DNA from: a candidate division WWE3 bacterium RAAC2_WWE3_1
GTDB lineage: Bacteria > Patescibacteriota > WWE3 > UBA101185 > UBA10185
Length of the DNA stretch: 64,000 nt
Direction of reading: 5' to 3'
Assembly: GCA_000503835.1 (NCBI GenBank)
Contig: CP006914.1
Span: forward strand, 529,680 to 593,679
How positions within the stretch are numbered: position 1 is the first letter of the stretch; every line of letters begins with the position of its first letter. Positions 893-35,880 of this stretch are shown here, one piece after another. The notes under the pieces were generated by a model. That model had not been told where the DNA came from. It searched no databases and worked only from the letters and a program-made list of their open reading frames with translations. The translations under genes were made by a program, and so were the position numbers.

Positions 893-1954
<1,062 letters not shown>

Positions 1955-2635
1955 CTATTACACGGGTAAGTTTGAGTGATTTTGGCGACCGGCATTCATG
2001 TTTGGGAGGCGGCCCATAAAAAACGCACATTCTTATAAAGCCGGACAGCTCTGTACACACCAGGACCTCTCTGCCCTACCCGGAAAAATATATATCAGAG
2101 AAGAATCGATTCCGTGCACTAGGACCGCAAAATAAATTTCTGGGGCGTTGTGTCGGTTCACAATAAGTTTACAGTGCTATCGTTATACTCTAAGAAGACC
2201 TGACCCTGCTGTTCGGAACACCAAGGCAAAGCCTGTAAGGGTCGGGAGCTGTAAAAATTTGAGGACTGACGAACCACTTTAGTTAAACACATAAACACGG
2301 GTATGCTCTCCGGACTATGGGGTCTATAAAAACCGGCTGTTAATAATACCTTAAAAATCTGAACCGCGTGCAAAAAATATTTCCTAACTTCCGAAAGAAA
2401 GTAATAACAAATGCTGAGCACGTCATATATTTACATCAGCAAAAAACGTTTAGTCTACAACATAAAAATACACGCCTTAAAAACAAAACATATCATATTG
2501 TCACATGTTAATAATTTAAGTCCGTGAAAAGGCTGTCAATAAAGAATAAAACAAGGTTTATGGTCCTTATGTAAATACTAACGAACATAAAACTGACAAA
2601 CCTTATCACTCGTTGATAGTAAAAGGAAATAAAGT

Positions 2636-2664
2636 ATTGACTGAGTAAAAAAAACCCTCTATTA
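2636..2664 (+). promoter_or_regulatory. Candidate promoter for the giant gene (TTGACT-17-TATTAT)
   Basis: ttgactgagtaaaaaaaaccctctattat lies about 55 nt upstream of the ATG at 2720. No obvious Shine-Dalgarno sequence is present. Confidence 0.25.
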
Positions 2665-2719
2665 TTTATAATAACTTTACTATCTGTTGTGACATAGGCA
2701 AATAGTAAACCTTCCTGCC

Positions 2720-5700
2720 ATGGAAATATCTGCCCAGAATAACAAAAAAAATTACTCAAAATCAGACTCAAACGTTTTTCGTAGTGAAGGATATGTTAAA
2801 GTATCTGAAGCCGCGAATTTATTAAGCGTTTCATCCTCTACCCTCCGTAGGTTCGAAGCTGAAGGTAAAATCACATCAAGAAGACTGGATAATAATTATA
2901 GGGTATACGATATATCAGAAGTCGCAAGATTCAAAAAAATACTTAATGAAGAAAAACAAACACGCAAAAAATCATACGTTACCGTTAACGACACACCGGT
3001 TTTTCAAAACAAAACTCCGGTCAAAGCCCACGGTTTTACCTGGCCCAAAATTAACGCCAGCTTCCCAAAAATAAATGAAACGTATAGTAACGTTTCGCAA
3101 AATTTTGAACAGCACTCGACTCTCAAAGCAGCTGCCAAATTTTTTAAGACTGCAAAAATAGCTGGTGTATCCTTCGCTGCAGTATTAATTCTAATAGGGC
3201 TGTCTGAAAATGTAAGATTTACAGATAATGTCATAGAGATACTTTCTTTCACTATGAGTAGACAGATCGAGACAGGAGAAAAAGGTTACGAAGTAATCGG
3301 ATTAACTTTAGGTTCCAAAGACAAAGTTACCAGCTATATCTACAACATTAATGTACCTGCTAACTTTAGACGAAACGTGAATATAGATGAAACTTTGCGG
3401 GTAACCGGGTTATCTTCGTTGTTAGGCGGCATAGAAACTCAAGATGCGGACGCAAACCTGGGTACGGGCACACTCACAACGGGCAGAATAGATATGACGG
3501 GCGAAGCATCCCTCAACAACCTTCTGGTCATCAATGATGTAACTGAAACTACACTGGAAGAATTCATCGATATCAATGGTGATGTGGTAGGAACCGGCTT
3601 AAACGATGTCAAAGTGGTCGGTCTCGGTGGAATCGAAGTAGGAGACCTTGACACCGATGACGGAAACATACTTATGATCGAAGGTGGAAGTTGGGCTTCT
3701 TTACCAACCAGCAGCATTACATCGCTTGGTACTATAACCACAGGCGTGTGGAACGGTACTCCTATCGCCCCGGGCTACGGCGGTACCGGACTTTCGTCAA
3801 TAACTGCCGGAAGTATTTTAATAGGGGGGTCAGGAAATACTATGTCAACTCTCGCCATCGGTTCCGCTAATCAGACGTTAATTTCAAGCGGTTCCGCCCC
3901 CGTCTGGACAAATTCCGATGCCTTTGTCTCTTCTTATGCGTGGCTGCTCACCGGTAATACAGGGACAGACAGCACTACGGATTTTATAGGGACTACGGAT
4001 AATACCGGACTTACTATCAGGACAAACGATGTCGAACGTGTGACTATAGCGGCTGACGGTAATGTGGGGATAGGAGGAACCGATCCTCAATTTTCTCTAC
4101 ATGTAGGAAATGGCAGCTCAAGCGCAGCCTGGATAGTAGGACAACAGGAAAGCGGTTACATAGAAGGCGATCTCGAGGTGGCGGGAACAATCTATGGTAC
4201 GTTTGTCGGACCCATAACAACTGTCGGGTATCAGCCTAATGCAGTGTTTTACTCTGACAGTGCCGGGACCATGACAACCGATAATACTCTGCTCTCTTTT
4301 AACGAAACCACGGCTGTGTTGTTGGTAAACGGAACTCTGAACACAAGTTTGTTTAAGATTGGTGGCACTTCAGTTACTTCAAGCGCGACTGAACTTAATA
4401 TCCTGGACGGGGCTTTAATATCAACAACAGAACTTAATCTTTTGGATGGACGCATCGGTACTCTTGTGGATTCAAGTAATGTGTCAAACTATGCTATTAC
4501 CTCAGTAGTGGCTGGATCGGGTTTAATCGGAGGAACAGGACCGGGGGCAACTACCCTTCATGTAGGGGTGGGAAACGGAATATCCATCGCCGCGGACAGC
4601 ATCGCCATAGATACAACAACAACAGGAGTAACCGCGGTATCCTCGTCCAATTCCGGACTTGAAGCATCCTCTGATGGACTTAGACTACTTGGGGGATGCG
4701 GATCTAACCAAATTCTTTCATGGGACGCAACCGGTCAGGTGTGGAAATGTGCATCAGTGTCAGGCATTGGCGGTATTACCGGAGCCGGCGCCTCAACACA
4801 GGTAGCTTTTTGGGACAGTGCGAGTTCTCTCACAGGGAATAACAGCCTTTGGTGGAACAATACAAGTACGAGACTTGGTATAGGAACCAGTGCTCCTCTA
4901 TACACACTTGATGTCAACGGAACAGCAAGGATAGGAAGTCTATCCGCAGGAAGCGGTAACTCAATAGTCCTTCAGAATGCAGGTGTACTTGAGACAAGGG
5001 ATGTTGATTCAAGGGTATGGGGAACTTCACTTGTTGACGGGACATCTTTAACCGCAAATTACCTGGCTAGAATATCTGACGCCAATACCCTAATAACCGG
5101 TATGGTCTATGACAACGGTTCATTTGTCGGAATAGGTACAACACAAGCCGGGTATCTTTTAAATATAGGGGGCTCTCTTAATACCTCGGCCCTCTTCATT
5201 GCAGGAAGTGCCGTAACATCAAGTGCCACAGAACTTAACATCCTTGATGGAGTTACCGCCACAACAAGTGAAATAAACATGCTAGCTGGAAGAACAGGAA
5301 CACTTGTTGACTCAAATAACGTGGGAAGTTATGCCGTAACTGCCATAACAGCAGGGTCAGGTCTAACAGGAGGAACAGGACCGGGAGCCACAACAATAAA
5401 TATTGGAGCCGGAAACGGATTAATAGTATCAGCTGACTCCATAGCAATAGACTCAGCAACAACCGGGTTAACTGCTGTAACATCATCTAACTCAGGTATA
5501 GAGGTAACAGCAGATGGAATAAGACTTTTAGGTGGGTGCTCACTTAACCAGGTTTTGGCTTGGGATAATACTTCACAAACATGGAAATGCTCCTCAGTCT
5601 CAGGTCTTGGAGGAGTAACAGGAACAGGAACCGATAACTACCTAGCCAGATGGGATGGAACTAGCGCTCTTCAAAATTCTTCTGTGTTTGCTGCCGATTC

Positions 5701-8700
5701 AGGTAATGTGGGAATCGGAACATCGGGTCCGGGATATAACCTGGATGTGGCGGGAAGCGCCAATGTATCAAACCTTTTTATCGCAGGAAACCTTGTATCC
5801 TCAAGTGCCACAGAACTAAATATACTTGACGGAGCACTAGTATCTACAGCCGAGATAAATCTTTTGGACGGAAGAACAGGTGTACTTTTAGACACAAGTA
5901 ATGTCTCGACCCAGCTTTCAACATGGGACCAACTGGCATCTGATGATCTGACAACCGCAACAGGGTTTTCCGGAGACGTGTCGGGTCCATATAACGATCT
6001 GCAGATACAAACAGGTGTTGTGGGTGCAAATGAACTTGCGGCAACAAGCGTATCGGCAGGAACATATGGCTCCACAAGCGGTGTCTCAACATTCACGGTA
6101 GACGCCGACGGAAGGTTAACTTCTGCCGGAAACACAACACTTAGCGGCGCCGGAATAACGGATAACACAATAGAGGAGGTTGATCTTGAGGTAACAAATG
6201 CGGGGGTAAACGGATACGTATTAACATATGACAATGCTACAGGCGGTTTCACCTGGGTATCCTCTGCCGTTATGGGTACAAACTACTGGCAGCGTATCGG
6301 TTCAAACCTTGTTCCTTTAACAGTAACAGACTATGTAACAACAAACGGAAGAATAGGTGCAGGCACAACTTCCCCCTCCTACACACTTGATGTCAACGGA
6401 ACAGCAAGGATAGGAAGTCTATCGGCAGGAAGCGGTAACTCAATAGTCCTTCAGAATGCAGGTGTACTTGAGACAAGGGATGTTGATTCAAGGGTATGGG
6501 GAACTTCACTTGTTGACGGAACGTCTTTAACTGCAAATTACCTAGCTAGAATATCTGACGCAAATACCCTAATAACCGGTATGGTCTATGACAACGGTTC
6601 ATTTGTCGGAATAGGTACTACCGGTAACTCAGGATACATACTAAATGTGGCGGGGAGTGCCAATGTATCAAACCTTTTCTTGGCAGGTACTCTTGTATCC
6701 TCAAGTGCCACAGAACTAAATATACTTGACGGAGCTACCCTTTCAACAACAGAGCTTAATCTTTTAACCGGAAGAACAGGAACACTGGTTGACTCAAATA
6801 ACGTGGGAAGTTATGCCGTAACTGCCATAACAGCAGGGTCAGGTCTAACAGGAGGAACAGGACCGGGAGCCACAACAATAAATATTGGAGCAGGTAGCGG
6901 TATCTCACTTGCCGCAGATTCAATAACCCTTGATACCGATACCACAGGTACAACCTCAGTCACATCAAATAACTCAGGTCTTGAGGTAACAGGTTCGGGT
7001 CTTAGACTTCTTGGGGGATGCTCGGATACACAGATACTTAAATGGAACTCAACCGCATCTGTCTGGTACTGTTCCTCAGATTCTACTGGTACCTCAGGTA
7101 CTGCAACCATAGCAGGATCGGGTCTTGCTACACAAATTGCCTTCTTCTCAGGTTCAACATCAATCAGTGGATCAAATAACCTATGGTGGGATAACACAGG
7201 TGGAAATCTTGGTATAGGAACATCAGGACCTGCAGCTAAACTCGAACTTGCCGGCTCCGCTGATACTGAACAATTCGTAATAAAAGCGAACGCTACACAA
7301 TCTAATACGAACCCTTTGATTCAGCTTCAATCATCGACCGGAACCGCTCTCTTAGATATCAGCACAGATAGTGTTGAAAACGTATTTATAGGCAGATTGG
7401 CAGGAAGTTCGAACACTGTGGGTGCAGGAAGCAGCGGCATGTACAACACCTTCATTGGCAGCGGCGCCGGTGATAATAATTCTGCCGGATACCAAAATAG
7501 CGTACTCGGCGCTTACGCCCTTTTCGGAAACACTTATGGAATAAACAACACCTCTATGGGCGTGTATTCACTTTTCTCAAATACTACCGGTAACGACAAC
7601 GTTTCGCTGGGTTTCAAAGCCGGGCAGTATAGCACGACCGGATCATACAACGTATTTTTAGGTACAAGCGCAGGATTTGGGGTCAACACCACACAAAGAG
7701 CTTTGTCTAGCTATAACGTAGCTATAGGTAACGAAGCCGGTTATAGCTTGTCGGCTAACTCCAGCAGTAACATATTCTTAGGCTACAGAGCAGGATATAA
7801 CGAGACGGGGTCTAATAAGCTGTATATAGATAATGGGTCAGCTCCCGGGGGGAGTGCCTTCATCTACGGAGATATGTCAAGTGACCTTTTAACCTTCAAC
7901 GCTAATGTGGGAATTGGAAAGACGTCCCCCACAGCATGGCTTGATATATCAGCTGCAACAACCTCTAAACCTTCGATAAGAGTAGCCTCAGGCACAGCTC
8001 CTTCCTCACCTGTTACAGGGGACATATATAATAATGGGACTTCCCTTTACTACTACAACGGAACTGCATGGCAAGATCTCGGAGCTACAGGTACATCAGG
8101 CACTGCAGCCATAGCAGGATCAGGTCTTGCAACTCAGGTTGCCTTCTTCTCAGGTTCCACATCAATTTCCGGGTCAAATAACCTATGGTGGGATTCCGGT
8201 AACTCAAGACTGGGAATCGGAACATCCGGTCCTGCCTACCCACTATCAGTGCTATCAACGGCACCTGATGTGGCCGACGGTCGCGTAGCTGACGTAGACG
8301 GAACGTTGACATCCTCAACAAACGATCAGCAGGGGTTTAAAACCTCCGTTACGGTCACTCCGGGCGCAAGCACCTCAAAAATCTACTCTGGCATGCAACT
8401 CTCGCTCTCGGGCAACAGTAATACACGTTTGACGAACGCCATTTTTAGAGGTGTAGAAGGTTATATCAGCTACAGCGGATCTTCGGGCATACTTGGCACA
8501 GGTATTGGGGGAAGATTCAGGGTAAATAATTCGTCAACGGGCACAATCACTAACGCCTATGATTTATACCTGGCAACCCCGACGAATACCGGAACGATCA
8601 CAAATACTTATGGTCTTTACATAGATTCTATGACTGCGGGCACCCAGCCGAACAAGGCTTTTGGAATATATCAGGCCGGTTCCGGTGACAGAAATTACTT

Positions 8701-11700
8701 CGCCGGTAATGTAGGTCTAGGAACAACTAACCCGGCAAGCATACTTCAGGTTGCAGGAAACATTCTACCCTCTGCAGACGATACCTACGATATTGGTTCC
8801 AGTGCATTAAGGTGGCGGGATGTGTATATAGGGCCTGCATCCTTACACATCGGTACCAATCAGAGCGAGGCAACCATAAAGTATCTGGTAGGCCAAAGCT
8901 CACTTGGCTTTGATCTTGATGCTAACGGTGTTTACGAGTTTGAAATGGGTGCAGACGGAAAATTCGGTATCGGCACAACCAACCCGAACTTCATGTTGGA
9001 CATTGCCGGAAGTGCAAGCGTAAACACCTTATTCCTTGGAGGTTCTGCGATAACGGCGACTGCCGCTGAACTTAACCGCCTATCAGGAGGATCCGGAAAT
9101 GTTGTCGATACAGGTAACGTGGGAAGTTATGCCGTAACTGCCATAACAGCAGGGTCAGGTCTAACAGGAGGAACAGGACCGGGAGCCACAACAATAAATA
9201 TTGGAGCAGGGAGTGGTATCTCACTTGCCGCAGATTCAATAACCCTTGATACCGATACCACAGGTACAACCTCAGTCACATCAAATAACTCAGGTCTTGA
9301 GGTAACAGGTTCGGGTCTTAGACTTCTTGGGGGATGCTCGGATACACAGATACTTAAATGGAACTCAACCGCATCTGTCTGGTACTGTTCCTCAGATTCT
9401 ACTGGTACCTCAGGTACTGCAACCATAGCAGGATCCGGTCTCGCAACTCAGGTTGCCTTCTTCTCAGGTTCAACATCAATTTCCGGGTCAAATAACCTAT
9501 GGTGGAACTCCACAGATTCAAGACTAGGGATTGGAACGTCCGCTCCTTTAACCTCACTCGATGTATCAGGAACAACCTGGCTAAGAGGCCTCTCGGCAAA
9601 TTCGGGACTATTCGTAAATGCATCAGGATCTATAGGAATCGGAACAACCAACCCGCAATATAATCTGCACGTAGTAGGAAACCTCGGGCTTACAGGAGAT
9701 TTTTATCTGCTTGGAGCACCTTCCTCACCTTCCACAACCGAAGGCACTATGTACTATGATACTGACGATGACCGGCTCAAAGTCTATGCTAACGGAAAAT
9801 GGCAATCAGACAGAACAACAGCAACCGTGATAGTTGCCGCATCAGATAGTAAAAATAAGGAAAAAGCCGATATTGTGGCTGACGGAACCAACGACGAAAC
9901 GGATATTGAGAATGCCGTTACCAACTACCTTCCGGCCACAGGAGGTAACGTTGTACTTCTTGACGGTACATACAATATAGGGGCGGACGGCATAGATATC
10001 ACCAAATCAAACGTTACCTTAACAGGTGCCGGTAATGCTACTGTCGTTAAAAGAGTTGCTGACTCGACAGCTGTCGACGGAACAATTACTTTAGGTGATG
10101 GGGGTACAACAGCTGTTACCAATGTCAAAATTACAGAACTCCAGGTCGACGGTCAAAAAAGTGCGTATTCCAGTCCTAATAACGTTGCGATATTTTTCAA
10201 CCAGCGGGTAACCCAGTCTCAAATTGAAGGCACCTACATTCACGATATTTATAGTTACGGCATTTACCTGAAAGGTACTACACAATCGGTCAGTGATAAT
10301 ACCATTCACAATAACACCATTATAAACAGCAGTAACCCAATCTATGTCGATGCCGGATCAACCAGCACCCGCGCTCACAACATTTCAATTACCAATAATA
10401 ATATTTCATCGGGCGTTGCAGGAATTTACATAAATTACGCTAAGTATTTTAAAGTTTCAGATAACAAATTTTCTAACTATCAGTATATTTTATCGGTGGA
10501 TAACTCCGAATATGGCGTTATTAGCGGAAACACCACTGACGGCAGCACTATTACAGGGGTTAATACAGCCATGGTTATATCCTTAGGTGCGAGCAATTAC
10601 AACACAATCGTTTCCAACTATATTTACGGCGGTTCGGGTATGGGTGGTTCGGCGGCAATATATGTCGACAATACAAGTACCGGGAACTATATAGCCGGTA
10701 ATACCTTGGGCAACAACAAGATAACCGATTCAGGTATCGGCACAATCATTCAGCAGGACGACCGATTCCTCGTAAACGGATATTTAAAAGCTACTTCCCT
10801 ATATCTTTCAGGTACGCAGGTAACCTCAAGTGCCACAGAACTAAATATACTTGACGGAGCTACCCTTTCCACAACAGAGCTTAATCTTTTAACCGGAAGA
10901 ACAGGAACACTTGTTGACTCAAATAACGTGGGAAGTTATGCCGTAACTGCCATAACAGCAGGGTCAGGTCTAACAGGAGGAACAGGACCGGGAGCCACAA
11001 CAATAAATATTGGAGCAGGGAGTGGTATCTCACTTGCCGCAGATTCAATAACTCTTGATACCGATACCACAGGTACAACCTCAGTCACATCAAATAACTC
11101 AGGTCTTGAGGTTGTGGCTGATGGCCTTCGCCTAATCGGAGGATGTACAGATACTCAAATTCTTAAATGGAATGCATCAACCTCCATGTGGTACTGCGCT
11201 GCTGATTCTACAGGAACTGCAGGTTCAGCCACAATCGCAGGCTCTGGTGTTGTAAACCAAGTCTCATTCTTCTCAGGCTCCACATCAATATCCGGTTCAA
11301 ATAATCTATGGTGGGACAATTCAAATACAAGACTAGGGATTGGAACATCGGGTCCTTTAACCGCTCTTGATGTATCCGGAACCACATGGCTTAGAGGTCT
11401 TTCAGCTAACTCGGGACTATTTGTAAACACCTCGGGATACGTCGGAATCGGAACAACCAACCCCACTGCCCCGCTAAGTGTTGGAACAGGTAGCGCCTTT
11501 GCGGTCAGTTCAACAGGAGCTGTAACATCAGGGAGCTGGAATGGCGCCGCAATAAGCGTTCCCTACGGAGGTACCGGATTGACATCAATTGCCGCGGGCT
11601 CCGTTCTTGCCGCCAATTCGGTTGACACGTTAAGTGTTATAACCTCAACATCCGGTCTTAAAGTACTACAAAATAGCGCGGGTACAACGTCGTGGGCGAC

Positions 11701-16144: not shown

Positions 16145-16229
16145 AAATAGCCTGTCGGGTACACGGCGTTTTTCATGCTTTGTCATATAGGCCGACAAAT
16201 TTATTTAGACTACAATTGTTAAAAATAAC

Positions 16230-19200: not shown

Positions 19201-22200
19201 GTATAAAAACCAGCGCAAACACCGCAAAAATGACTAACGCAAAGATAATAATGGATCAGTCAGATGCAACAAATGGTGTAAGGGATGTTGAGCTGTACCA
19301 ATCACAGGTAAATGCCATAATGACCGATGCTGACACCACCTATACAAGCTCATACAAGTTCACAGGATTCAATCCCGGTATTCACGCCAGCCAAATAACG
19401 TTTGAGGGAGGAACTTTCAACTACTTCTATGAAAGTACAATGAAGACATCGGCGGGGACAGGTTATGCGAGGCTTTATAACAGCACCGCAGGAACCGCAA
19501 TAACAAGTGGCGAGATTACGACATCCTCCACCTCATATACAAGGATTAGAAGCGGCAATATAACAGCAAGCATGCCAAGTGCAACTGGATCTTTCCTCAT
19601 AGCGCAGGATCTGGATACACAGGCCAAAAACTCGGCCACCAACACCACCTCTTTGGCAAATTCGTGGATCATAGTACAGGTGTCTAATCTTTCAAACACA
19701 TCAAATACTGTCTATGCCGATCTATACAACCTTACCGACGGTACATCCGTCACCGGATCTGAGGTTAGTACGGCCGCAGTACAGACCATCACATACCTGA
19801 GAAGTTCCCCGATAACACTTACGACGGGAAAAGAGTACGTTGTGAGAACAAAGACCAGTAGCGCAGACAGCGTACCATATTACACATATAACGCAAAGAT
19901 AATAATGGATCAGTCAGATGCAACAAATGGTGTAAGGGATGTTGAGCTGTACCAATCACAGGTAAATGCCATAATGACCGATGCTGACACCACCTATACA
20001 AGCTCATACAAGTTCACAGGATTCAATCCCGGTATTCACGCCAGCCAAATAACGTTTGAGGGAGGAACTTTCAACTACTTCTATGAAAGTACAATGAAGA
20101 CATCGGCGGGGACAGGCTATGCGAGGCTTTATAACAGCACCGCAGGAACCGCAATAACAAGTGGCGAGATTACGACATCCTCCACCTCATATACAAGGAT
20201 TAGAAGCGGCAATATAACAGCAAGCATGCCAAGTGCAACTGGATCTTTCCTCATAGCGCAGGATCTGGATACACAGGCCAAAAACTCGGCCACCAACACC
20301 ACCTCTTTGGCAAATTCGTGGATCATAGTACAGGTGTCTAATCTTTCAAACACATCAAATACTGTCTATGCCGATCTATACAACCTTACCGACGGTACAT
20401 CCGTCACCGGATCTGAGGTTAGTACGGCCGCAGTACAGACCATCACATACCTGAGAAGTTCCCCGATAACACTTACGACGGGAAAAGAGTACGTTGTGAG
20501 AACAAAGACCAGTAGCGCAGACAGCGTACCATATTACACATATAACGCAAAGATAATAATGGATCAGTCAGATGCAACAAATGGTGTAAGGGATGTTGAG
20601 ATAGTGCACGCGGCCAACGCATATAAATATACCGACAGCGATTCCACATATACCCAGATTTATAACTTCAATCTGACCCCTAACTACAACATGAAAGGGG
20701 GAAACTTCGTTTATTTCTTCGAATCAAACTTGAAAACCACCGGCGGGACAGCATACGCAAGATTGTATAACTCCTCAGCTGGCGCCACCATTACCAACTC
20801 GGAAATTACCACAAACTCCACATCGCTTGTGCGTGTGCGAAGTGCTGAGTTAAGTTCCTACTTACCTACAGCTGCTGACTCTTTAGATGTACAACTACGG
20901 AATAGTGCAACCAACACAACAACCACAACAGGATCTTCTTTAATTATTCAGGTGACCAACCTTGGGGATCCAAACACCTACATTGCTTTATATTCCAATG
21001 CTACCAGTTGTTCTAGTCAAGTACCTGGAAGTGAAATTTCCACAAAACCATCAGATGGGACAAAACGAGTGGTGTCACAGTCAATAAGTCTGTCTGACGG
21101 GGAATACATGGTTTGTACAAAGGCTTCAAGCGGCGTGACAATAACTTTGTATAACGCCAAAATCAATCACCAACAATCAAACGCACAAGGCATAACCAAC
21201 CTCAGAACTTTCAGATCACTAAACACCGACCTTGAGACCCAAGCGACCGCTACATATACCAGTAAAAACGGGCTAAACTTCTATGACCCGGCGCAGTTCA
21301 CAGGAACGGTCACGGGCTCGTTTGATGCAACAGTATTAGCGACCGCCACAACCGCCTATGCCCAGCTATACAATGTCACAACCTCGGGAGCTCTAACTGA
21401 AACCGAAGTGTCCACTACTAGCACTTCTTATGTCAGACTGCAAAAATCTATTACCACTCTTCCGGCCTCCGAGTCAACCCTCGATGTTCAGATAAAAAAC
21501 AGCAGTACTAATACAACAAAGACCACCGCGTCCTGGCTGGTACTTGATATAGAAAATATTCTGCCCGCTATCGTGCACGATTCAACATCAAATAAACTTA
21601 ACGGTCAGCTGGAAGGAACTACATGGGAATCAGAACAAAACTGCATCTCGGGATCGTGCCTGGAATTCGACGGAGTGGATGATTATGTAAAGGTGACCGA
21701 CAACCCCAGGCTGGATTTTGGGGCATCTGACAGTTTCACTATAAGTATGTGGTTCACGCTTCCCTACTCCACAACAAACAGCAGGGGCCTTATTTCAAAA
21801 TACGAATCAACGGGAGCGGATGGTGGTTACCAGATCCGAGTCGACGCAAACGGCAAGGTCGTGGTCGAAATTTCCGATGATAATACAACTTTTCCTAAAG
21901 ATTCGGTGACAAGCTCGGTTAGTTATAGAGATAGTAAGTGGCACCATGTGGCCGCCGTAAAGGACGGTGCTACCAGTTTGAAACTATATATGGACGGTGT
22001 GCTTGAGGGAACGGATAGTTCCATAGCCACTGCCGGTGCTTTATCAAACAACGATCTACTTTATATGGGAGATGCCAATGACGGCACGACCGGCAATTGG
22101 CTAGGACACATCGACGAGGCAAAAATATATCGCTATGCGAGAACGGCACAGGAAATAGAAAACGAACTTTACGGAACAAATCCGGGCGGATCAACGTCGT

Positions 22201-25200
22201 TGGGTGAAAACGCCGCCACAAAAATAAATAACGGTTTACTGGCCCAATGGAAGCTGGAAGAAACAACTGCCGATTCATGCGGAACAGGAGTCACAGACGG
22301 TTGTGATAATACAAATAACGGATATGACGGGTATTGGAACGGAAATCCGACTTCCGGACAGGGAAAAATAGGAAACGGTCTCACGATGGATGGTACCGGC
22401 GATGCGCTTAGGGTAACACCGGAGGGTGCCAAATTACCGAACACATCTTTAAGCACCAGGATACCCATAACTTTCGACAACTCTGCTTCAGCCGAGGATC
22501 TGACCAATTTCCCCGTGCTGGTTAAGCTAAATAGCTCAAGGATAAATTACTCTAAAACGCAGGATGCCGGTCAGGATATAAGATTTACCGACAGTGACGG
22601 AACCACTCTACTGAACTATGAAATAGAAAAATGGGATGAGACGGGCACTTCCTTCGTTTGGGTAAAGGTTCCCAATATACCTGCAGGGGCGACAACCGAC
22701 AAAATTTACATGTACTTTAATGATACAAGTTTATCTGACGGTCAAAACGCCAGCGGTGTTTGGAACTCAAACTATGTGGTCTCTCAGCATATGAAAGAAA
22801 CCACAGGAGTAACGACCTACGATTCCACATCTAACGCAAACAACGGCACAAAACTGGCCGCCACCGAACCTAACCCTACCACCTCCGGACAAATCAATGG
22901 TGCCCAGAGTTTTGACGGCAGTAATGACTACATAACATTGTCAAGCAGTGTATCGGGAAGTATCGATCAAATTACGGTCTCGGCATGGGTTTATGCTAAT
23001 ACCCAAGGTGAAGCAAGCGATTACCGTGCAGTTGTTAGCGAAGCATTCACAGGTGACAATAACGTAGAATTTGAACTTTATCTCACGGGTGCAAACCATA
23101 ACTTATCGGCGGGATTCTACTCCGGAAGTTGGACCACGGTTTCCGACACAGTGGCGTTTCCGCTAAACCAATGGGTACATGTTCTTGCTACATACGACGG
23201 TCATTACATCAAGGTGTATAAAGATTCGGTACTTGTAAAAACTTCTACCGATTTAAACAAACCCCTACCCAACGGAGCCAACGGATGGAGGATAGGAAGG
23301 CGCCATGATTCAGGAAATGCGGCAAATATGTGGGATGGCTTAATTGATGAGGTTCGTATCTCAAATACCGTGCGGTCCGGTGATTGGGTCGAGGCAATAT
23401 ACAAATCAGAGAAAGACACCCTCAACACATATGGAGCCGAACAACCCTATATTCCGAACTTCAACGTGTCCGATCAGGTGTCTGTTACCGGTTGGTACTA
23501 CCCAACAACCCTGGACAACACCACAAAATACCTGACATTCGGCAGTGGCACGACAAAGTCAATGTACATCAAAACTGATTCCGTCAATGCAGGAAAACTA
23601 CTCTTCTCTTCCAACGGAACAAACGAGGGTACATCCTCAACAACACTTTCAACAAATAACTGGTACCAGATCACACTTGTCGGAAATTCCACGGAGACCA
23701 AGCTCTACATAAACGGAGAACTGGATTCCACGGTAACTAACACAACCGGTATTTCAAATTTGGAGTCCTTCTATATAGGTAACAACGACAGTCTTTCCAC
23801 AGGCGGCTGGATAGGAAAAGTGGACGAGGTCAAGTTATACAATACCGCACTTTCCGCTTCGGAAATTGCCGCGGGTTATGATACACCAAAAAGCCCGCTT
23901 GCCTACTACACCTTCGATCAAAAAAATGCGACCGGGGTATTTGATATTTCCACAAATAATAATGCAGGTACGTGGGGCGGTTCCACAACAAACCGTTATA
24001 CCCTCGGAAAATTCGGGAGTGCGGGAATATTTGACGGTACCTCGGATTACGTCACCACATCCGACACCCCGTTCGACATCACAGGTGATTTCACCCTTGA
24101 ATCCTGGATAAACCTCGGCACCGCAGGTTCCGCACCCTACAATATAATAAGCAAGCACGGAGCAGCGGGTTCCGGAGGTTATTCGCTGTTCGTAGATGCA
24201 AACGGAGCCGTAAACTGTCTTACCGATAATGGAACAGCCGAAATAACAAGCAAAACCGCTAATTCCTCCGTAACTTCATCGTCCGGATGGATCCACGTTT
24301 CAGCCGTTAGGAATGGAACTTCATGCAAAATTTATATAAACACCGAAGACAGAACCTCTACCGCAGGAACGCATACTTCCTTATCCGCCAACAGCTCGAC
24401 CCTGCGTTTGGGCTCGAATGTTTCCGGCTCCGGTTTCTTTAAAGGTTATATGGACGAGGTCAAGATATACGACTACGCCCTTGCCCCCAAGACCTTGTTA
24501 ATTGACTATAACGCCGGCCACCCTGTACCCGGCTCCCCTGTGGGAAGCGCCAAAGGCTGGTGGAAAATGGATGAGGGCTATGATAACACCGCCCATAACA
24601 CAGGCTCGTCAGGCAGTACGAACAACGGAACAATTACCGGCGCCGCATGGTCGCAGGACGGAAAATTCGACCGCGCCTTGGACTTTGACGGTACTTCAGA
24701 TTACGTTACCGTCGCGACAGGTGAAATTGTCGACCAAAACACCGTTACAATCGAGGCCTGGATCTACCCCACGAGCGTAAACGGAGCCCATGATTTTACG
24801 ATACTTGCCCAAAACGATAACGGCGCGGGATATACAACCCACAACTTCGGAATTTCAGGCTCGTCAGGCAAACTCTTATACGATAACGAACTTCCTGCAA
24901 GTGGCGTCCTTAACAGCAATACATCCATAACGGCGAATCAATGGCAGTATGTGGCCGTTGTAAGAAATGCCGATAGCGTAACTTTCTATTTGAACGGTGT
25001 GGCCGACGGAAGCGGGACGGGCGAGGCGAGATCGAGTTCCGCTGCCATAGACAATACCCTGATAGGAGCACGGTACTACTCGGCTGCCCCCCAACATCAG
25101 TTTGCAGGGAAGATTGACGAGGTAAAAATCTACAATGTCGCCCTAACCGCTTCACAAGTGGCTCAGGCATACAACCGCGGAAAGGCAATGTCCTTTGGCG

Positions 25201-26504
25201 CCCTATCTACAGACACAGCCGGTTTACCGTTAAACTCAGCCAAATCCGCATACTGCGTTCCGGGAGATGCAACAACCTGCAACGCCCCTGTTGCCGAATA
25301 TAATTTCGATGAAAAACAGGGTTCATATATAAACGATGTGTCGGGAAACGCACATCAAGGTACTCTCGCAAACAGCCCCGCGTGGACGAACGGCAATATC
25401 GGAGGAGCCGTGGAATTTAACGGTACTAACAACTACGCCACGATTGCGACAGGCGAACTTGTCGCCCAGGATGCCATCACGGTCGAAGCCTGGATCTATC
25501 CCGGAAAAGTCACCGACGCATCTAATGCCTTCACCATTTTCGTTCAAAACGATAGTGGCGCCGGAAACGCTACTCACCTTTTCGCCATTGATAACACGAA
25601 CGGCAAGCTCCTGTACGACAACACCGGTCCGGCCGGCGGAGCTATAAACGGCAATACTGCCCTCACTCCAAACACCTGGAATCACGTGGTCTTTACCAGA
25701 AGCGGTACTTCCGTAAACTTCTATCTTAATGGTATGAACGACGGCTCCGGTACCGGTGAAAGCAGAGCAAGTTCGGCAGACGTAGATAACACTTTGATAG
25801 GAGCACGGTACTACTCGGCCGCCCCCCAGCATAAATTTATAGGAAAGATCTCACAGCTTACGGTGTTCGACTACGCCAGAACCGCATCTCAAATTGCCTG
25901 GGACCACGGCAAAGGCAGTCCGTCACTTTGGTGGAAACTTGACGACTGCCAGGGTCTTGTGGCGCAGGATTCGGGTGTAAATAATTTCGACGGCACTATA
26001 ACAATCGGCGCATCTCTTTCCAACACCTCGGAAGGTTCCTGCTCTTCAGGTCAAAGCAGTCAGGCCTGGAACAACGGGACATCGGGTATGATTAATTCGA
26101 GCCTTCACTTTGATGGTACTGACGACTATATTACCCGGGGAACAGGTCCCTCGACGTATTCAATGAGTCTTTGGGTAAAACCTTCTTCCACAACACAGTC
26201 AATAGTAGATCTGGACGGGGGCACACATACTCTAACTGTCTCCTCAGGAACAATATCAGCCGGCGGTTTCTCTTCTCCCACTATTTACGTGGACGGATAC
26301 CCGACAACGACACTATCAGATACAAACTGGCATCAAATAACCGTTGTAACAAGTACCCCCTTTAACACGGGCACCATCACCTTAGGTAAAATAAACACGG
26401 CTTACTACACAGGACAAATAGATGAATTTAAACTCTTCTCCTACCCTCTGACCGCCATACAGGTCAGGGACAACTTTGCAAAGGGTGTGGCAACCTTCGA
26501 CTAA
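16230..26504 (+). CDS. Giant (3424 aa) membrane-anchored surface protein with two DUF2341 domains, about 12 novel ~100-aa repeats, and seven LamG/Laminin_G_3 (concanavalin-A-like) domains
   Basis: A 10.3-kb uninterrupted ORF starting 85 bp after the first giant gene.
- A basic N-terminus is followed by a TM helix (LVPVSVGMLIVLLPVIWLSI).
- nt 16620-16920: DUF2341-like sequence (DWFDDNWHYRKKITITN...DARFTD..GQVLRYYID...FYVLLPTINAGSTVIYFYYAN).
- nt 22470-22740: a second DUF2341-like sequence (PITFDNSA..LTNFPVLVKL....DIRFTDSDG..LNYEIEKWD..GTSFVWVKVPNI.....IYMYFND).
- nt 21600-26460: seven jelly-roll units with FDG.DDYV...SMW..WHHVA.V.DG....LY.DG....G.IDEV.IY..AL motifs.
- nt 18200-21550: repeated A.LYN.T.G..VTGSE.ST...................Y.V..K.S....AKII units. 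Confidence 0.85.
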   Translation: MKEGLNIKEKMKRVRRKIVGFGKFSTPYRKHDVTSIFEERERSKDTGSSIKAFSSKKLQLLYIKIIAFFTARKQNWRNFYTQELPFSRILRFLKSRYPTYKKYLVPVSVGMLIVLLPVIWLSIKNPDKVRADWFDDNWHYRKKITITNNGTADADKKILFETDTSALISGSKMQNTCADARFTDVNGQVLRYYIDAATGACNTVSTDFYVLLPTINAGSTVIYFYYANTYVEAVAETSQFSQATFSPAGSSTGNESVGPGPAAYWKFDEAYDQKENTKIEQELEIMTVGEYSTSSYTASIPIDITYSAAQNLTDYQIPVTFSYQSGMNTDFSDIRFYNSAGTKLNYWIESKTDSTTASVWVKVPLISGSTTTTIYLRYGNSGFTSESSLANTFTSNSVQLLTSRCPSSSTACYFSDSHTEFDTVASSVQNLTSGFAVDGSGSVTAVNNSSNPYGSSDNYFSRYRFLFVADTSGTHGFLVNSDDASELNLRDAMDTDTTHTVPAYWYGGHGNAGTCATSGTTGTRSINSGESVWLDYRQTEVGSGQLAQLCISEPAGSYAVVNTTNFPGQLYARSVITTGSEPSVSVGAPQQGGYTFMPTNNSLGIVGYNPSLYSSVSSVNLEIVASTDNGTTWTKYRTTESGNNLSSSTYTVRVKAGVGSNTPQAALYDTTSGTSFLPLNFGTTSDTEVSIKNARLIIRQESGVGITQTETKTEMGSYEAGTAATYTQQTDKKIYNYDSTKYNPAPTNFFETTAKVTNDSVGVEQQIPITNTPPLTTRTTSYTPTDSSLGVGYWDADKYPGGTVYLEVDHYNYDYSDPYIAIYTVSGTYVTEFQVSPASQGYIRYRSPALTLTDDTAYTVRWKASNAAHPQTLYAARFIVVQTDTTKITGTETQVEIGANTTSTATSYTNLTDKKIWRYDSSKYSPAPTTYFEAVLSNDTAGQTSYVALYTDGAACSSQVTGSEISVTGTTWSWVRSNSISLSSGTDYTVCIKTSANTAKMTNAKIIMDQSDATNGVRDVELYQSQVNAIMTDADTTYTSSYKFTGFNPGIHASQITFEGGTFNYFYESTMKTSAGTGYARLYNSTAGTAITSGEITTSSTSYTRIRSGNITASMPSATGSFLIAQDLDTQAKNSATNTTSLANSWIIVQVSNLSNTSNTVYADLYNLTDGTSVTGSEVSTAAVQTITYLRSSPITLTTGKEYVVRTKTSSADSVPYYTYNAKIIMDQSDATNGVRDVELYQSQVNAIMTDADTTYTSSYKFTGFNPGIHASQITFEGGTFNYFYESTMKTSAGTGYARLYNSTAGTAITSGEITTSSTSYTRIRSGNITASMPSATGSFLIAQDLDTQAKNSATNTTSLANSWIIVQVSNLSNTSNTVYADLYNLTDGTSVTGSEVSTAAVQTITYLRSSPITLTTGKEYVVRTKTSSADSVPYYTYNAKIIMDQSDATNGVRDVEIVHAANAYKYTDSDSTYTQIYNFNLTPNYNMKGGNFVYFFESNLKTTGGTAYARLYNSSAGATITNSEITTNSTSLVRVRSAELSSYLPTAADSLDVQLRNSATNTTTTTGSSLIIQVTNLGDPNTYIALYSNATSCSSQVPGSEISTKPSDGTKRVVSQSISLSDGEYMVCTKASSGVTITLYNAKINHQQSNAQGITNLRTFRSLNTDLETQATATYTSKNGLNFYDPAQFTGTVTGSFDATVLATATTAYAQLYNVTTSGALTETEVSTTSTSYVRLQKSITTLPASESTLDVQIKNSSTNTTKTTASWLVLDIENILPAIVHDSTSNKLNGQLEGTTWESEQNCISGSCLEFDGVDDYVKVTDNPRLDFGASDSFTISMWFTLPYSTTNSRGLISKYESTGADGGYQIRVDANGKVVVEISDDNTTFPKDSVTSSVSYRDSKWHHVAAVKDGATSLKLYMDGVLEGTDSSIATAGALSNNDLLYMGDANDGTTGNWLGHIDEAKIYRYARTAQEIENELYGTNPGGSTSLGENAATKINNGLLAQWKLEETTADSCGTGVTDGCDNTNNGYDGYWNGNPTSGQGKIGNGLTMDGTGDALRVTPEGAKLPNTSLSTRIPITFDNSASAEDLTNFPVLVKLNSSRINYSKTQDAGQDIRFTDSDGTTLLNYEIEKWDETGTSFVWVKVPNIPAGATTDKIYMYFNDTSLSDGQNASGVWNSNYVVSQHMKETTGVTTYDSTSNANNGTKLAATEPNPTTSGQINGAQSFDGSNDYITLSSSVSGSIDQITVSAWVYANTQGEASDYRAVVSEAFTGDNNVEFELYLTGANHNLSAGFYSGSWTTVSDTVAFPLNQWVHVLATYDGHYIKVYKDSVLVKTSTDLNKPLPNGANGWRIGRRHDSGNAANMWDGLIDEVRISNTVRSGDWVEAIYKSEKDTLNTYGAEQPYIPNFNVSDQVSVTGWYYPTTLDNTTKYLTFGSGTTKSMYIKTDSVNAGKLLFSSNGTNEGTSSTTLSTNNWYQITLVGNSTETKLYINGELDSTVTNTTGISNLESFYIGNNDSLSTGGWIGKVDEVKLYNTALSASEIAAGYDTPKSPLAYYTFDQKNATGVFDISTNNNAGTWGGSTTNRYTLGKFGSAGIFDGTSDYVTTSDTPFDITGDFTLESWINLGTAGSAPYNIISKHGAAGSGGYSLFVDANGAVNCLTDNGTAEITSKTANSSVTSSSGWIHVSAVRNGTSCKIYINTEDRTSTAGTHTSLSANSSTLRLGSNVSGSGFFKGYMDEVKIYDYALAPKTLLIDYNAGHPVPGSPVGSAKGWWKMDEGYDNTAHNTGSSGSTNNGTITGAAWSQDGKFDRALDFDGTSDYVTVATGEIVDQNTVTIEAWIYPTSVNGAHDFTILAQNDNGAGYTTHNFGISGSSGKLLYDNELPASGVLNSNTSITANQWQYVAVVRNADSVTFYLNGVADGSGTGEARSSSAAIDNTLIGARYYSAAPQHQFAGKIDEVKIYNVALTASQVAQAYNRGKAMSFGALSTDTAGLPLNSAKSAYCVPGDATTCNAPVAEYNFDEKQGSYINDVSGNAHQGTLANSPAWTNGNIGGAVEFNGTNNYATIATGELVAQDAITVEAWIYPGKVTDASNAFTIFVQNDSGAGNATHLFAIDNTNGKLLYDNTGPAGGAINGNTALTPNTWNHVVFTRSGTSVNFYLNGMNDGSGTGESRASSADVDNTLIGARYYSAAPQHKFIGKISQLTVFDYARTASQIAWDHGKGSPSLWWKLDDCQGLVAQDSGVNNFDGTITIGASLSNTSEGSCSSGQSSQAWNNGTSGMINSSLHFDGTDDYITRGTGPSTYSMSLWVKPSSTTQSIVDLDGGTHTLTVSSGTISAGGFSSPTIYVDGYPTTTLSDTNWHQITVVTSTPFNTGTITLGKINTAYYTGQIDEFKLFSYPLTAIQVRDNFAKGVATFD
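19241..20600. repeat. Near-perfect 654-bp (218-aa) in-frame tandem duplication inside the second giant gene: two full copies plus about 52 bp of a third
   Basis: Unit 1 (19241-19894) and unit 2 (19895-20548) are identical apart from roughly one synonymous change (ggttatgcg versus ggctatgcg). The first ~52 bp of the unit recur at 20549-20600 before the sequence diverges. The identical spurious antisense ORFs at 19475-19699 and 20129-20353 confirm the period of 654. Confidence 0.9.
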
Positions 26505-35792: not shown

Positions 35793-35880
35793 AATTAAAT
35801 GTAAACACTTGTTATATAAGGTGTCAACAGATGAATGTTGTTGCAATAGTGATTCCTATATGCACAAAAGCTTGGGGATT

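What the first reader, a model, noticed from the sequence alone, without database searches (positions are those of the whole stretch)
2720..26504. A 23.7-kb tandem pair of giant membrane-anchored surface proteins (4474 aa and 3424 aa) with phage-tail-fibre and lectin architecture: a candidate host/particle attachment system
Two co-directional ORFs separated by 85 bp occupy 37% of the window and are free of stop codons. Such ORFs cannot arise by chance in AT-rich DNA.

Protein 1 is built like a phage receptor-binding protein. It has tail-fibre IGIGTT.P/LDV.G motifs, YadA-like collagen-binding-head repeats, a pectate-lyase-type beta-helix and a peptidase-S74 intramolecular chaperone. It is nevertheless membrane-anchored at its N-terminus through a TM helix that follows an HTH.

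Protein 2 combines a TM anchor, two DUF2341 domains, a run of about 12 repeats of ~100 aa that I could not assign to any family, and seven LamG jelly-roll (carbohydrate or protein binding) domains.

In episymbiotic or small-genome bacteria such giant proteins are the prime candidates for a host-cell attachment apparatus. The internal recombining repeats (see the separate findings) suggest rapid diversification. The pairing of a tail-fibre-like anchored fibre with a multi-LamG partner has not, to my knowledge, been described as a unit.
Basis: partly seen in the sequence, partly recalled or inferred. Interest (0 to 1): 0.8.

Follow-up and report, generated by a model that had tools for sequence, protein, structure and literature searches.

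The report
Giant membrane-anchored fibre and lectin pair
Two intact giant genes of an uncultivated WWE3 (CPR/Patescibacteria) bacterium encode a 4474-aa tail-fibre-like surface fibre, related to the prey-recognition fibres of Bdellovibrio but anchored by a DNA-binding head plus a membrane helix, and a 3424-aa sugar-binding partner; the pair is kept together across WWE3 genomes and is the best candidate for how this tiny cell grips a host.

Summary
Both ORFs are intact at the stated coordinates on a WWE3 (Patescibacteria) chromosome, between an ATP-synthase operon and rplJ.

P1 has a cytoplasmic MerR-type HTH, one TM helix, and about 3900 aa of fibre. The fibre carries at least 16 "capping-loop" repeats, a NosD-type beta-helix, an S74 chaperone-protease (S4101/K4106) and a conserved C-terminal extension. 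A profile built only from P1's own repeats hits only Bdellovibrio MAT prey-recognition fibres in the PDB.

P2 has a TM anchor, 3 DUF2341 domains, about 10 CBM-like jelly-roll repeats and 7 LamG domains.

The pair is adjacent, or separated by a ~5-kb insert, in every testable WWE3 locus. It recurs sporadically elsewhere. It diverges much faster than its neighbours (P2 23-33% identity against ~80%).

The "YadA-like head" is not supported. There are three DUF2341 domains, not two. The DNA is not AT-rich (45% GC).

MerR-HTH + TM + fibre (+S74) is a recurrent Patescibacteria architecture (2106, 2995 and 4474 aa). It is usually truncated in MAGs and mis-annotated as a regulator.

Best reading: a trimeric surface adhesin plus a multivalent lectin used for host attachment. 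This function is inferred, not shown. It is a new variant of a known kind.

The parts
2314..2719 (+). Conserved noncoding leader of P1. It contains a sigma70-like promoter (TTGACT-17-TATTAT, 2637-2665).
   Evidence: 82-84% identical to L001 and L002, and nearly invariant from the -35 element to the ATG. No Rfam match.
2720..16144 (+). P1: a 4474-aa membrane-anchored fibre of the MAT / tail-fibre type.
2798..2941 (+). P1 aa 27-74: MerR-type helix-turn-helix, predicted cytoplasmic.
   Evidence: PF00376 at E 6e-8 and PF13411 at 1e-5. Residues 8-73 are nearly invariant in relatives. The same head is found in at least 15 clusters.
3155..3217 (+). P1 aa ~146-166: a single TM helix acting as a signal-anchor. 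Lys-rich residues precede it and acidic residues follow, which implies N-in/C-out topology.
   Evidence: Kyte-Doolittle peak of 1.9. A hydrophobic stretch sits at the same place in all relatives.
3227..3919 (+). P1 aa 170-400: conserved fibre-base domain, non-repeated.
   Evidence: 85% and 77% identical to L001 and L002. Shared by the head family.
4064..14119 (+). P1 aa ~449-3800: the shaft. It carries at least 16 capping-loop motifs of the form (L/I)G(I/L)GT..P...L(D/E)V.G. A ~280-aa module recurs about 6-7 times, marked by SSATELN, AGSGL.GG and GGC..W.C (each found 6 times).
   Evidence: A profile of these segments hits only Bdellovibrio MAT fibre structures: 8ond at 8e-11, 8ojn at 7e-10 and 8oml at 6e-5.
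7217..8269 (+). P1 aa 1500-1850: Gly/Asn-rich 'head-like' repeat block 1.
   Evidence: No Pfam or PDB match. PHROG tail-spike and virion structural families match at about 1e-11. Duplicated at aa 3266-3620.
12515..13579 (+). P1 aa 3266-3620: head-like repeat block 2.
   Evidence: 66% identical to block 1 over the aligned ~260-aa core.
9707..10699 (+). P1 aa ~2330-2660: right-handed parallel beta-helix of the NosD / pectate-lyase clan.
   Evidence: PF05048 at E 7.2e-9, 35.8 bits against a cutoff of 23.6.
14297..15019 (+). P1 aa 3860-4100: distal tip region, which would be exposed after S74 cleavage.
   Evidence: Conserved in Patescibacteria S74 proteins. 67-87% identical in WWE3 relatives. Weak match to the PHROG tail-fibre family phrog_9942.
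15020..15304 (+). P1 aa 4101-4195: Peptidase_S74 intramolecular chaperone-protease. The SDARLK site supplies S4101 and K4106.
   Evidence: The fold matches the MyRF ICA domain and the profile matches 7dc3 and 6f45.
15305..16141 (+). P1 aa 4196-4474: post-S74 extension, made of a coiled coil and a terminal beta-sandwich ending in ..F.WW(I/V)...
   Evidence: Conserved only in Patescibacteria loci and absent from the best 80 viral matches. The last ~70 aa have pLDDT 73-91.
16145..16229 (+). 85-nt spacer between P1 and P2. It has a weak hairpin plus T-run at 16153-16168 and no promoter match.
16230..26504 (+). P2: a 3424-aa membrane-anchored multi-lectin protein.
   Evidence: The start codon is supported by the conserved MKEG... 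start in L003.
16536..16598 (+). P2 aa ~103-123: TM helix following a basic cytoplasmic N-terminus.
   Evidence: Kyte-Doolittle peak of 2.4. The same layout occurs in the L004 orthologue.
16656..17429 (+). P2 aa 143-400: two DUF2341 domains.
   Evidence: PF10102. Coordinates.
17457..17714 (+). P2 aa ~410-495: weak PA14-like segment.
   Evidence: PF07691 at E 0.0076, below the gathering score. Treat as a hint only.
18177..21599 (+). P2 aa ~650-1790: about 10 beta-sandwich repeats in alternating short and long forms. The fold is CBM-like jelly-roll.
19235..20600 (+). Near-perfect tandem duplication of a 654-nt unit inside the P2 repeats.
   Evidence: 711/712 identical.
21669..22157 (+). P2 aa 1814-1976: LamG domain 1.
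   Evidence: PF13385
22464..22784 (+). P2 aa ~2079-2185: third DUF2341 domain.
22914..26465 (+). P2 aa 2229-3412: LamG domains 2-7.
   Evidence: PF13385 scores E 8.6e-146 over 7 stretches. Coordinates.

Best explanation
P1 and P2 form a cell-surface attachment module of a WWE3 (Patescibacteria) bacterium.

P1 inserts into the membrane through one signal-anchor helix. This leaves a small MerR-type HTH in the cytoplasm and about 3900 residues outside. Its C-terminal S74 chaperone trimerises and templates folding of a triple beta-helical fibre. It then cuts itself off at Ser4101 (Ser/Lys dyad), releasing the last ~374 residues and exposing the distal tip. By scaling from Bd3182 the fibre would be about 0.25 um long. 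It carries MAT-type capping-loop repeats, two Gly/Asn-rich blocks and a NosD-type beta-helix that may bind or cut polysaccharide.

P2 is anchored the same way. It displays a string of sugar-binding-type modules (3 DUF2341, about 10 CBM-like repeats, 7 LamG) that would bind envelope glycans by avidity.

The two genes are probably co-transcribed from the conserved promoter upstream of P1. Module shuffling, tandem duplication and fast divergence retune specificity.

Shown: domain content, homology to MAT fibres, conserved adjacency, and fast divergence. Inferred: topology, trimerisation, self-cleavage, co-transcription, glycan binding and host attachment.
For: Domains are supported.

A profile of P1's own repeats hits only Bdellovibrio MAT fibres in the PDB (8ond 8e-11, 8ojn 7e-10, 8oml 6e-5). 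The MAT paper shows such fibres sit on a predator's surface, self-cleave at the S74 serine and bind prey glycans (PMC10769870).

The S74 Ser/Lys pair is invariant, and the C-terminal model matches the MyRF ICA fold.

A TM helix with positive charges on the inside is conserved in relatives.

The P2 repeat fold matches CBMs.

Fibre followed by P2 is found in L003, L008-L011, L168-170, L173, L175, L176 and L004/L215.

In L011, P2 is 23-33% and the P1 C-terminus 59-71% identical, against 78-85% for neighbouring genes.

The setting is chromosomal and syntenic, not a prophage.

The promoter is conserved.

The MerR...S74 architecture recurs in P0292 (2106 aa) and P0175 (2995 aa).
Against: There are no expression, localisation or binding data.

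Monomer AF2 of the C-terminal cassette is poor (pLDDT 51), so trimer geometry is not shown.

WWE3 hosts are unknown, and it is not established that WWE3 cells are episymbionts.

Most distant DUF2341-LamG genes are not preceded by a fibre gene, so the partnership is not obligatory for that protein class.

The spacer has a weak terminator-like hairpin.

The cytoplasmic HTH has no role in a pure adhesin model.

Repeat copy number could be an assembly product.
Confidence: 0.6

Rival explanations
1. A polysaccharide capture and degradation apparatus for nutrition rather than host attachment. The lectin and CBM array (P2) would hold environmental glycans, and the beta-helix in P1 would act as a lyase or hydrolase. 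This would resemble surface glycan-binding and cellulosome-like systems.
For: CBM-like fold of the P2 repeats. Seven LamG domains and a weak PA14 match. A NosD / pectate-lyase-clan beta-helix. Glycogen and GH57 genes lie nearby. The Patescibacteriota phage paper discusses both glycan degradation and adhesion roles for ConA-like proteins.
Against: No catalytic glycoside hydrolase or lyase family was detected in either protein. The closest solved relatives of the P1 shaft are recognition fibres, not enzymes. The nearby glycogen genes are for cytoplasmic storage metabolism. Extreme divergence of P2 between close species fits recognition of variable cell surfaces better than recognition of common polymers.
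Confidence: 0.2
2. P1 is primarily a contact sensor. The fibre would transmit binding or tension across the membrane to the MerR HTH, either as a ToxR/CadC-like one-component regulator or by proteolytic release as in MYRF or Notch. P2 would serve as co-receptor.
For: The HTH is the most conserved part of the N-terminus. It is retained in at least 15 divergent clusters and in full-length proteins that also carry S74. The leader upstream of P1 is conserved and contains an inverted repeat. S74 together with a DNA-binding domain and a TM helix is the MYRF parts list.
Against: No DNA target is known. The MerR dimerisation helix and effector domain are absent (only about 50 aa match). S74 lies outside the cell at the far end, so its cleavage cannot free the HTH. 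No site-2 protease link was found.
Confidence: 0.12
3. A domesticated or decaying phage tail-fibre region (prophage or tailocin remnant).
For: S74 and the head-like block match many PHROG tail-fibre and tail-spike families. There are 403 viral S74 matches.
Against: No phage genes flank the locus. It lies between the atp operon and rplJ, with the same synteny in other WWE3 species. The HTH and TM anchor are not phage features. The full C-terminal cassette is absent from the best 80 viral matches, and none of those loci has a P2-like neighbour.
Confidence: 0.03
4. Assembly-inflated or chimeric genes: the repeats were mis-joined, so the true genes are shorter or interrupted.
For: A near-identical 654-nt duplication. 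Relatives' assemblies break or have N-gaps in these genes, and a 540-kb contig starts inside the P1 homologue.
Against: Both reading frames are intact over 23.7 kb. The ends of both genes match orthologues. Paralogous modules differ mostly at third codon positions. Independent full-length family members of 2106 and 2995 aa exist.
Confidence: 0.05

Closest known systems
Bdellovibrio bacteriovorus MAT (mosaic adhesive trimer) fibres, e.g. Bd3182 and Bd2133 (Caulton et al. 2024, PMC10769870)
   Same: They are cell-encoded, phage-tail-fibre-like fibres on the surface of a bacterium that lives off other bacteria. They share the capping-loop beta-helix repeats; the P1 repeat profile hits 8ond, 8ojn and 8oml. 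Both have a C-terminal S74 with an SDxxxK site. Both have mosaic or swappable distal parts; P0155 ends in a different tip.
   Different: P1 is 4-5 times longer. It has no signal peptide or MAT N-terminal domain, and instead has a cytoplasmic MerR HTH plus a TM anchor. It has about 280 aa beyond the phage-like S74 module. It comes from a monoderm-like CPR lineage. It is paired with a giant lectin gene.
Phage S74 tail fibres and endosialidases (K1F endoNF, T5 pb1, T4-like long tail-fibre tips)
   Same: Peptidase_S74 intramolecular chaperone with a Ser/Lys dyad.
   Different: P1 is chromosomal, membrane-anchored and not part of a virion. In phage families the S74 module ends the protein, whereas here a conserved extension follows it.
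Giant lectin and pectin-lyase surface proteins of CPR genomes (Kantor et al. 2013, PMC3812714); giant LamG proteins of DPANN nanohaloarchaea (PMC10266531)
   Same: Very large predicted surface proteins with ConA/LamG and beta-helix domains in small-genome, probably host-dependent organisms. Attachment has been proposed for them.
   Different: Those reports are domain inventories. The S74/MAT homology, the MerR-TM head and the conserved two-gene unit were not described.
MYRF (myelin regulatory factor)
   Same: It combines a DNA-binding domain, an S74/ICA trimerising self-cleaving domain and a TM helix in one chain (PDB 7dc3 hit).
   Different: The order differs. In MYRF, S74 lies between the DBD and the TM helix on the cytoplasmic side, so cleavage frees the DBD. 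In P1, S74 is extracellular at the far C-terminus. The DBD is also a different type (Ndt80-like against MerR).
ToxR/CadC-type transmembrane transcription factors (PMC5430869)
   Same: Cytoplasmic N-terminal DNA-binding domain, a single TM helix and an extracytoplasmic domain.
   Different: Those have a winged-helix OmpR-type DBD and a small periplasmic sensor. No fibre is involved. DNA binding by P1 is untested.

Membership tests
MAT superfamily (Bdellovibrio fibre adhesins) | Beta-helix shaft with recurring capping-loop motif V-G-G/N-pi-x-x-P-x-x-x-L | tested here: met
   The motif occurs at least 16 times in P1. The profile of these segments hits only MAT structures in the PDB, at 8e-11, 7e-10 and 6e-5. 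P1's motif is one residue longer than the published consensus.
MAT superfamily (Bdellovibrio fibre adhesins) | C-terminal S74 chaperone-protease with SDxxxK (S74 subgroup) | tested here: met
   PF13884 at E 1e-16. SDARLK lies at 4101-4106 and is invariant in alignment A2.
MAT superfamily (Bdellovibrio fibre adhesins) | Signal peptide followed directly by the conserved ~130-aa beta-rich N-terminal domain | tested here: not met
   P1 starts with a MerR HTH (aa 27-74) and has a signal-anchor TM at aa ~146-166. Whether the base domain (aa 170-400) is related to the MAT N-domain was not tested, because no sequence was available.
MAT superfamily (Bdellovibrio fibre adhesins) | Homotrimeric fibre on the cell surface that binds prey glycans | not testable with these tools
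   Only monomer AF2 was available, giving pLDDT 51. This needs a multimer model and experiments.
Peptidase S74 / endosialidase intramolecular chaperone | Pfam match above threshold with the catalytic Ser and Lys five residues apart | tested here: met
   61-66 bits against a cutoff of 22. S4101 and K4106 are present.
Peptidase S74 / endosialidase intramolecular chaperone | The module ends the polypeptide | tested here: not met
   PHROG tail-fibre profiles end at about aa 4193, and about 280 more residues follow. This extension is conserved only in Patescibacteria.
Phage tail fibre (virion component) | Encoded within a phage or prophage gene set | tested here: not met
   Flanking genes are the atp operon, rplJ/rplL and glycogen genes. 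The arrangement is syntenic in WWE3.
YadA-like trimeric autotransporter head | YadA_head repeats (PF05658) and a C-terminal beta-barrel anchor | tested here: not met
   No Pfam hit at E<=1. No PDB hit by phmmer or by profile. No C-terminal anchor domain.
Pectate-lyase-like right-handed beta-helix clan | Match to a clan member model above threshold | tested here: met
   NosD PF05048 at 35.8 bits against 23.6. Catalytic residues were not examined.
MerR family transcription regulators | N-terminal HTH plus a C-terminal coiled-coil dimerisation and effector-binding domain | tested here: not met
   Only the ~50-aa HTH matches. It is followed by a linker and a TM helix. NCBIfam MerR-type equivalogs score far below their cutoffs.
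LamG / ConA-like lectin (PF13385) | Pfam match above threshold | tested here: met
   E 8.6e-146 over 7 stretches. Coordinates.
DUF2341 (PF10102) | Pfam match above threshold | tested here: met
   123 bits over 3 stretches.
TafC (haloarchaeal Tat-fimbria subunit, NF052521) | Score at or above the NCBIfam cutoff of 410 | tested here: not met
   186 bits. Only the LamG part of the model matches. See PMC11821415.
Diversity-generating retroelement target | Adenine-specific mismatches between repeat copies and a nearby reverse transcriptase | tested here: not met
   Mismatches involve all bases and are third-position biased. No RT gene was found by Pfam among the ORFs scanned.

The most novel reading that the evidence does not exclude
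The MerR-HTH + TM + S74 fibre would be a new class of contact-responsive, membrane-tethered DNA-binding protein. Three HTHs would be held together by the trimeric fibre, and would couple binding or tension at a host surface 0.25 um away to gene regulation or to tethering of DNA at the contact site. This would be a bacterial counterpart in parts list to MYRF and in logic to ToxR or Notch, and it is widespread in Patescibacteria but hidden by truncated assemblies and 'MerR regulator' annotations.
Probability: 0.15. Interest if true: 0.85.

Novelty: new variant of a known kind. Interest (0 to 1): 0.62.

Why it matters
How ultrasmall CPR/Patescibacteria cells recognise and hold their hosts is largely unknown outside Saccharibacteria type IV pili. 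This locus gives a concrete, conserved and testable candidate for an uncultivated class (WWE3).

It links that candidate by homology to the only experimentally studied cell-encoded tail-fibre adhesins, the Bdellovibrio MAT fibres. That suggests phage-type fibres are a general tool of bacteria that live on other bacteria.

It also exposes a recurrent architecture (cytoplasmic MerR HTH, TM helix, giant fibre, S74) that current pipelines truncate and label as a transcription regulator.

The strongly conserved HTH raises the possibility of outside-in signalling through an adhesin.

On the practical side, these genes are where WWE3 assemblies break.

Tried and rejected
- Full-length homology searches of both proteins timed out, so I used segments instead.
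- Exact-sequence look-ups found neither protein on record.
- The YadA-like head was rejected after Pfam at E<=1, PDB phmmer and a PDB profile search all gave nothing.
- PDB phmmer with the shaft module and with the tip region gave nothing or noise. Only profiles reached the MAT structures.
- The prophage origin was rejected on context and on the viral scan.
- DGR hypermutation was rejected.
- TafC membership was rejected.
- The second HTH-headed ORF (34884..35846, minus strand) has no TM helix and is unrelated.
- The Rfam search of the conserved leader found nothing.
- The AF2 monomer of the C-terminal cassette was too poor for overall fold assignment. Only S74/ICA-level matches came out.
- The apparent stops in L008 and L009 are N-gaps, not pseudogenisation.
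- The iterative DUF2341 profile drifted onto the LamG domains, so only the three Pfam-consistent copies are reported.
- Context look-ups for P0292, P0175 and P0177 were not possible under the tool's restrictions.
Full report
**Observation.** They are on the same strand, 85 nt apart, and together cover 37% of the window. At about 46% GC, the chance of such stop-free runs is of order 1e-106 and 1e-81 (my arithmetic). The DNA is not AT-rich. Several things show both are genuine genes. Pfam domains score above gathering thresholds. Orthologues exist elsewhere. Mismatches between paralogous modules fall mostly on third codon positions.

**Organism and setting.** The flanks are cellular: rplJ/rplL with an L10 leader directly downstream, then galT, glgA, GH57 genes, tRNAs, argS and obg. 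The nearest relatives of P1, P2 and the flanking genes are candidate division WWE3 (Patescibacteria) MAGs. In relatives the locus sits in the same place, between a reversed ATP-synthase operon and rplJ. Nothing phage-like flanks it.

**P1 anatomy.**
- Residues 27-74 are a MerR-type HTH.
- Residues ~146-166 form a single hydrophobic helix. Lys residues precede it and acidic residues follow, which implies an N-in/C-out signal anchor.
- A non-repeated base domain covers aa 170-400.
- A mosaic shaft follows, in which a ~280-aa module recurs about 6-7 times and a ~350-aa Gly/Asn-rich block occurs twice.
- The motif (L/I)G(I/L)GT..P...L(D/E)V.G occurs at least 16 times.
- Residues ~2330-2660 are a NosD-type right-handed beta-helix (E 7e-9).
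- Residues 4101-4154 are Peptidase_S74 (E 1e-16 to 4e-18). The SDARLK site is present, and S4101 and K4106 are invariant in an alignment of relatives.
- The S74 part matches the extreme C-termini of many PHROG tail-fibre families (to 5e-27). In P1, however, about 280 more residues follow: a coiled coil and a small beta-sandwich ending in F.WW(I/V).
- This full cassette is found only in Patescibacteria loci. It is absent from the best 80 of 403 viral S74 matches.

There is no Pfam hit at E<=1 and no PDB hit by sequence or by profile. Only phage tail-spike and virion structural PHROGs match that block (~1e-11).

**What P1 is related to.** I built a profile only from P1's own 16 motif-centred segments. 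At E<=0.01 it hits three PDB families, and all three are Bdellovibrio bacteriovorus fibre structures: Bd2133 (8ond, 8e-11), 8ojn (7e-10) and 8oml (6e-5). The alignment runs through GN(L/V)G(I/L)GT.AP...L.V.G. These are the MAT (mosaic adhesive trimer) fibres of Caulton et al. 2024 (PMC10769870). That paper describes 21 homotrimeric fibres on the predator's surface. Thirteen of them end in a self-cleaving S74 domain (SDxxxK). They carry the capping-loop motif V-G-G/N-pi-x-x-P-x-x-x-L and have swappable tips that bind glycans. P1 therefore shares the shaft repeat and the S74 end with MAT fibres. It lacks their signal peptide and N-terminal domain.

**The MerR-TM head is a family trait.**
- An exhaustive HMMER search with aa 1-400 found at least 15 clusters (at 50% identity) that align from the HTH onward.
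- All ten that I checked carry the MerR HTH at the N-terminus. The four whose sequences I retrieved have a hydrophobic helix at the same position.
- They come from WWE3 and other Patescibacteria MAGs. Most are truncated at contig ends and are annotated 'helix-turn-helix domain-containing protein' or 'MerR regulator'.
- Two independent long members have both the MerR head and an S74 followed by an extension: P0292 (2106 aa) and P0175 (2995 aa). P0177 (3434 aa) has the head but no S74. P0155 ends in an FGE-sulfatase (C-type-lectin-like) domain instead.
- Among the window, L001 and L002, the HTH (aa 8-73) is almost invariant while the linker diverges. That indicates selection on the HTH itself.

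**P2 anatomy.**
- A basic cytoplasmic N-terminus is followed by a TM helix at aa ~103-123.
- There are three DUF2341 domains (~143-247, 301-400, 2079-2185).
- There is a weak PA14-like stretch (E 0.008, below threshold).
- There are about 10 beta-sandwich repeats between aa ~650 and 1790.
- There are seven LamG domains (aa 1814-3412).
- The NCBIfam TafC hit is only a LamG resemblance (186 bits against a cutoff of 410).

**Are the two genes a unit?** Starting from the fibre side:
- The P2-like gene follows the S74 gene in L003, an 84% relative whose next ORF starts MKEGTDRKEK... like P2.
- It does so in all four WWE3 species genomes, L008-L011.
- It does so in a more distant contig, L004/L005, where a 1935-aa TM-DUF2341-LamG protein starts 7 nt after the fibre gene.

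Starting from the P2 side in metagenomes:
- Six close orthologues have the fibre upstream. It is adjacent in L168-170, and a ~5-kb insert intervenes in L173, L175 and L176, as in L010.
- The other three (L171, L172, L174) have too little upstream sequence to judge.
- Among distant DUF2341-LamG genes, a fibre signature lies upstream in about 11 loci. Many loci with 8-10 kb of upstream sequence have none.

The pairing is thus fixed in the WWE3 clade and recurs elsewhere, but it is not obligatory for this protein class. None of the other S74 loci scanned, cellular or viral, has a P2-like neighbour.

A strongly conserved promoter and leader precede P1. The spacer has no promoter match and only a weak hairpin. 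Co-transcription is plausible but not shown.

**Diversification.**
- In the syntenic species L011, neighbouring genes are 78-85% identical. The P1 C-terminus is 59-71% identical. P2 is 23-33% identical and half as long.
- Within the window, P1 modules share exact stretches of up to 221 nt. P2 has a 654-nt unit duplicated with 711/712 identity.
- There is no DGR signature.
- Relatives' assemblies break or carry N-gaps in exactly these genes, and a 540-kb contig begins inside the P1 homologue. The copy numbers here therefore need read-level confirmation.

**Mechanism.** The best reading is a surface attachment module. P1 would be a trimeric fibre whose S74 domain drives folding and then removes itself at S4101 together with the C-terminal extension, exposing the tip. 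These steps are known for phage S74 proteins and were shown for Bd3182. They are inferred here. Scaling from Bd3182 (about 550 A for 922 aa) gives roughly 0.25 um for P1, about the diameter of a CPR cell. This is a rough inference. P2 would add multivalent glycan binding.

The rivals are glycan scavenging, contact sensing through the HTH, a phage remnant, and an assembly artefact. Each is weighed in its own section. The conserved cytoplasmic HTH is not explained by a pure adhesin model and is the most intriguing open point. MYRF shows that a DNA-binding domain, S74 and a TM helix can work together, but there the domain order lets S74 release the DNA-binding domain. In P1 it cannot.

**Novelty.** Large lectin and pectin-lyase surface proteins in WWE3 and sister phyla were noted in 2013 (PMC3812714). 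Cell-encoded S74 fibres were described in 2024. I found no paper on several points: the homology of a CPR giant protein to MAT fibres, the MerR-HTH/TM head as a recurrent anchor, the Patescibacteria-specific post-S74 extension, and the conserved fibre plus DUF2341/CBM-like/LamG gene pair. I rate the finding as a new variant of a known kind, of moderate to high interest.

Noticed in passing
window 2314-2719: The noncoding leader upstream of P1 is as conserved as coding sequence (82-84% identical to two relatives), and is nearly invariant from the -35 element to the ATG. It contains an inverted repeat, AAGGTTT...AAACCTT. There is no Rfam match.
   Followed up: partly
window 893-1897 (- strand): A 334-aa ORF (258 aa in relatives) with no Pfam match. 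It has a beta-rich N-terminal part and two C-terminal TM helices joined by a 'GRNPMAG' loop. It is conserved next to the ATP-synthase operon in L001 and L002.
   Followed up: no
L004 65-5391 (same contig as L215): The fibre gene of this distant relative is interrupted by an intein (...VAGN|CVAAD... to ...GILAHN|T...). The intein carries two nested ORFs: a 430-aa zinc-finger protein and a 131-aa 23S-rRNA-IVS-like protein.
   Followed up: partly
L010 3406-8383; also L173, L175, L176: In some WWE3 genomes about 5 kb lies between the fibre gene and the P2-like gene. In L010 this insert holds two extra ORFs, a 294-aa TM-anchored protein and a ~1370-aa protein with no Pfam match. They may be further components.
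   Followed up: partly
window 54447-56690; L004 11367-13394; L007 3595-6192: A polytopic membrane protein with C-terminal TPRs directly follows the pair in L004. A TPR-containing protein (865 aa, not compared further) likewise follows an S74 gene in L007. The full-length homologue of the L004 protein in the window (E 7e-57) lies 28 kb away.
   Followed up: partly
L168 (contig Ga0209417_1000013, 540 kb), L001, L008, L009: Public WWE3 assemblies end or have N-gaps inside the P1 and P2 homologues. As a result P1 homologues are deposited as short 'partial' proteins annotated as HTH or MerR regulators.
   Followed up: yes
L012 8000-11086: A Patescibacteria single-cell genome encodes a protein with 13 FG-GAP repeats followed by S74 and the same post-S74 extension. 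This shows the C-terminal cassette is attached to quite different ectodomains.
   Followed up: partly
window 26539-26702: A ribosomal L10 leader (RF00557, 49 bits) starts 35 nt after the P2 stop, with a promoter-like site at 26513-26541. rplJ/rplL therefore appear to be a separate transcription unit.
   Followed up: partly
window 34884-35846 (- strand): A second ORF has an N-terminal HTH_17/MerR-type HTH, then an acidic linker and an unassigned C-terminal domain. It has no TM helix, so it is not the P1-type head.
   Followed up: partly
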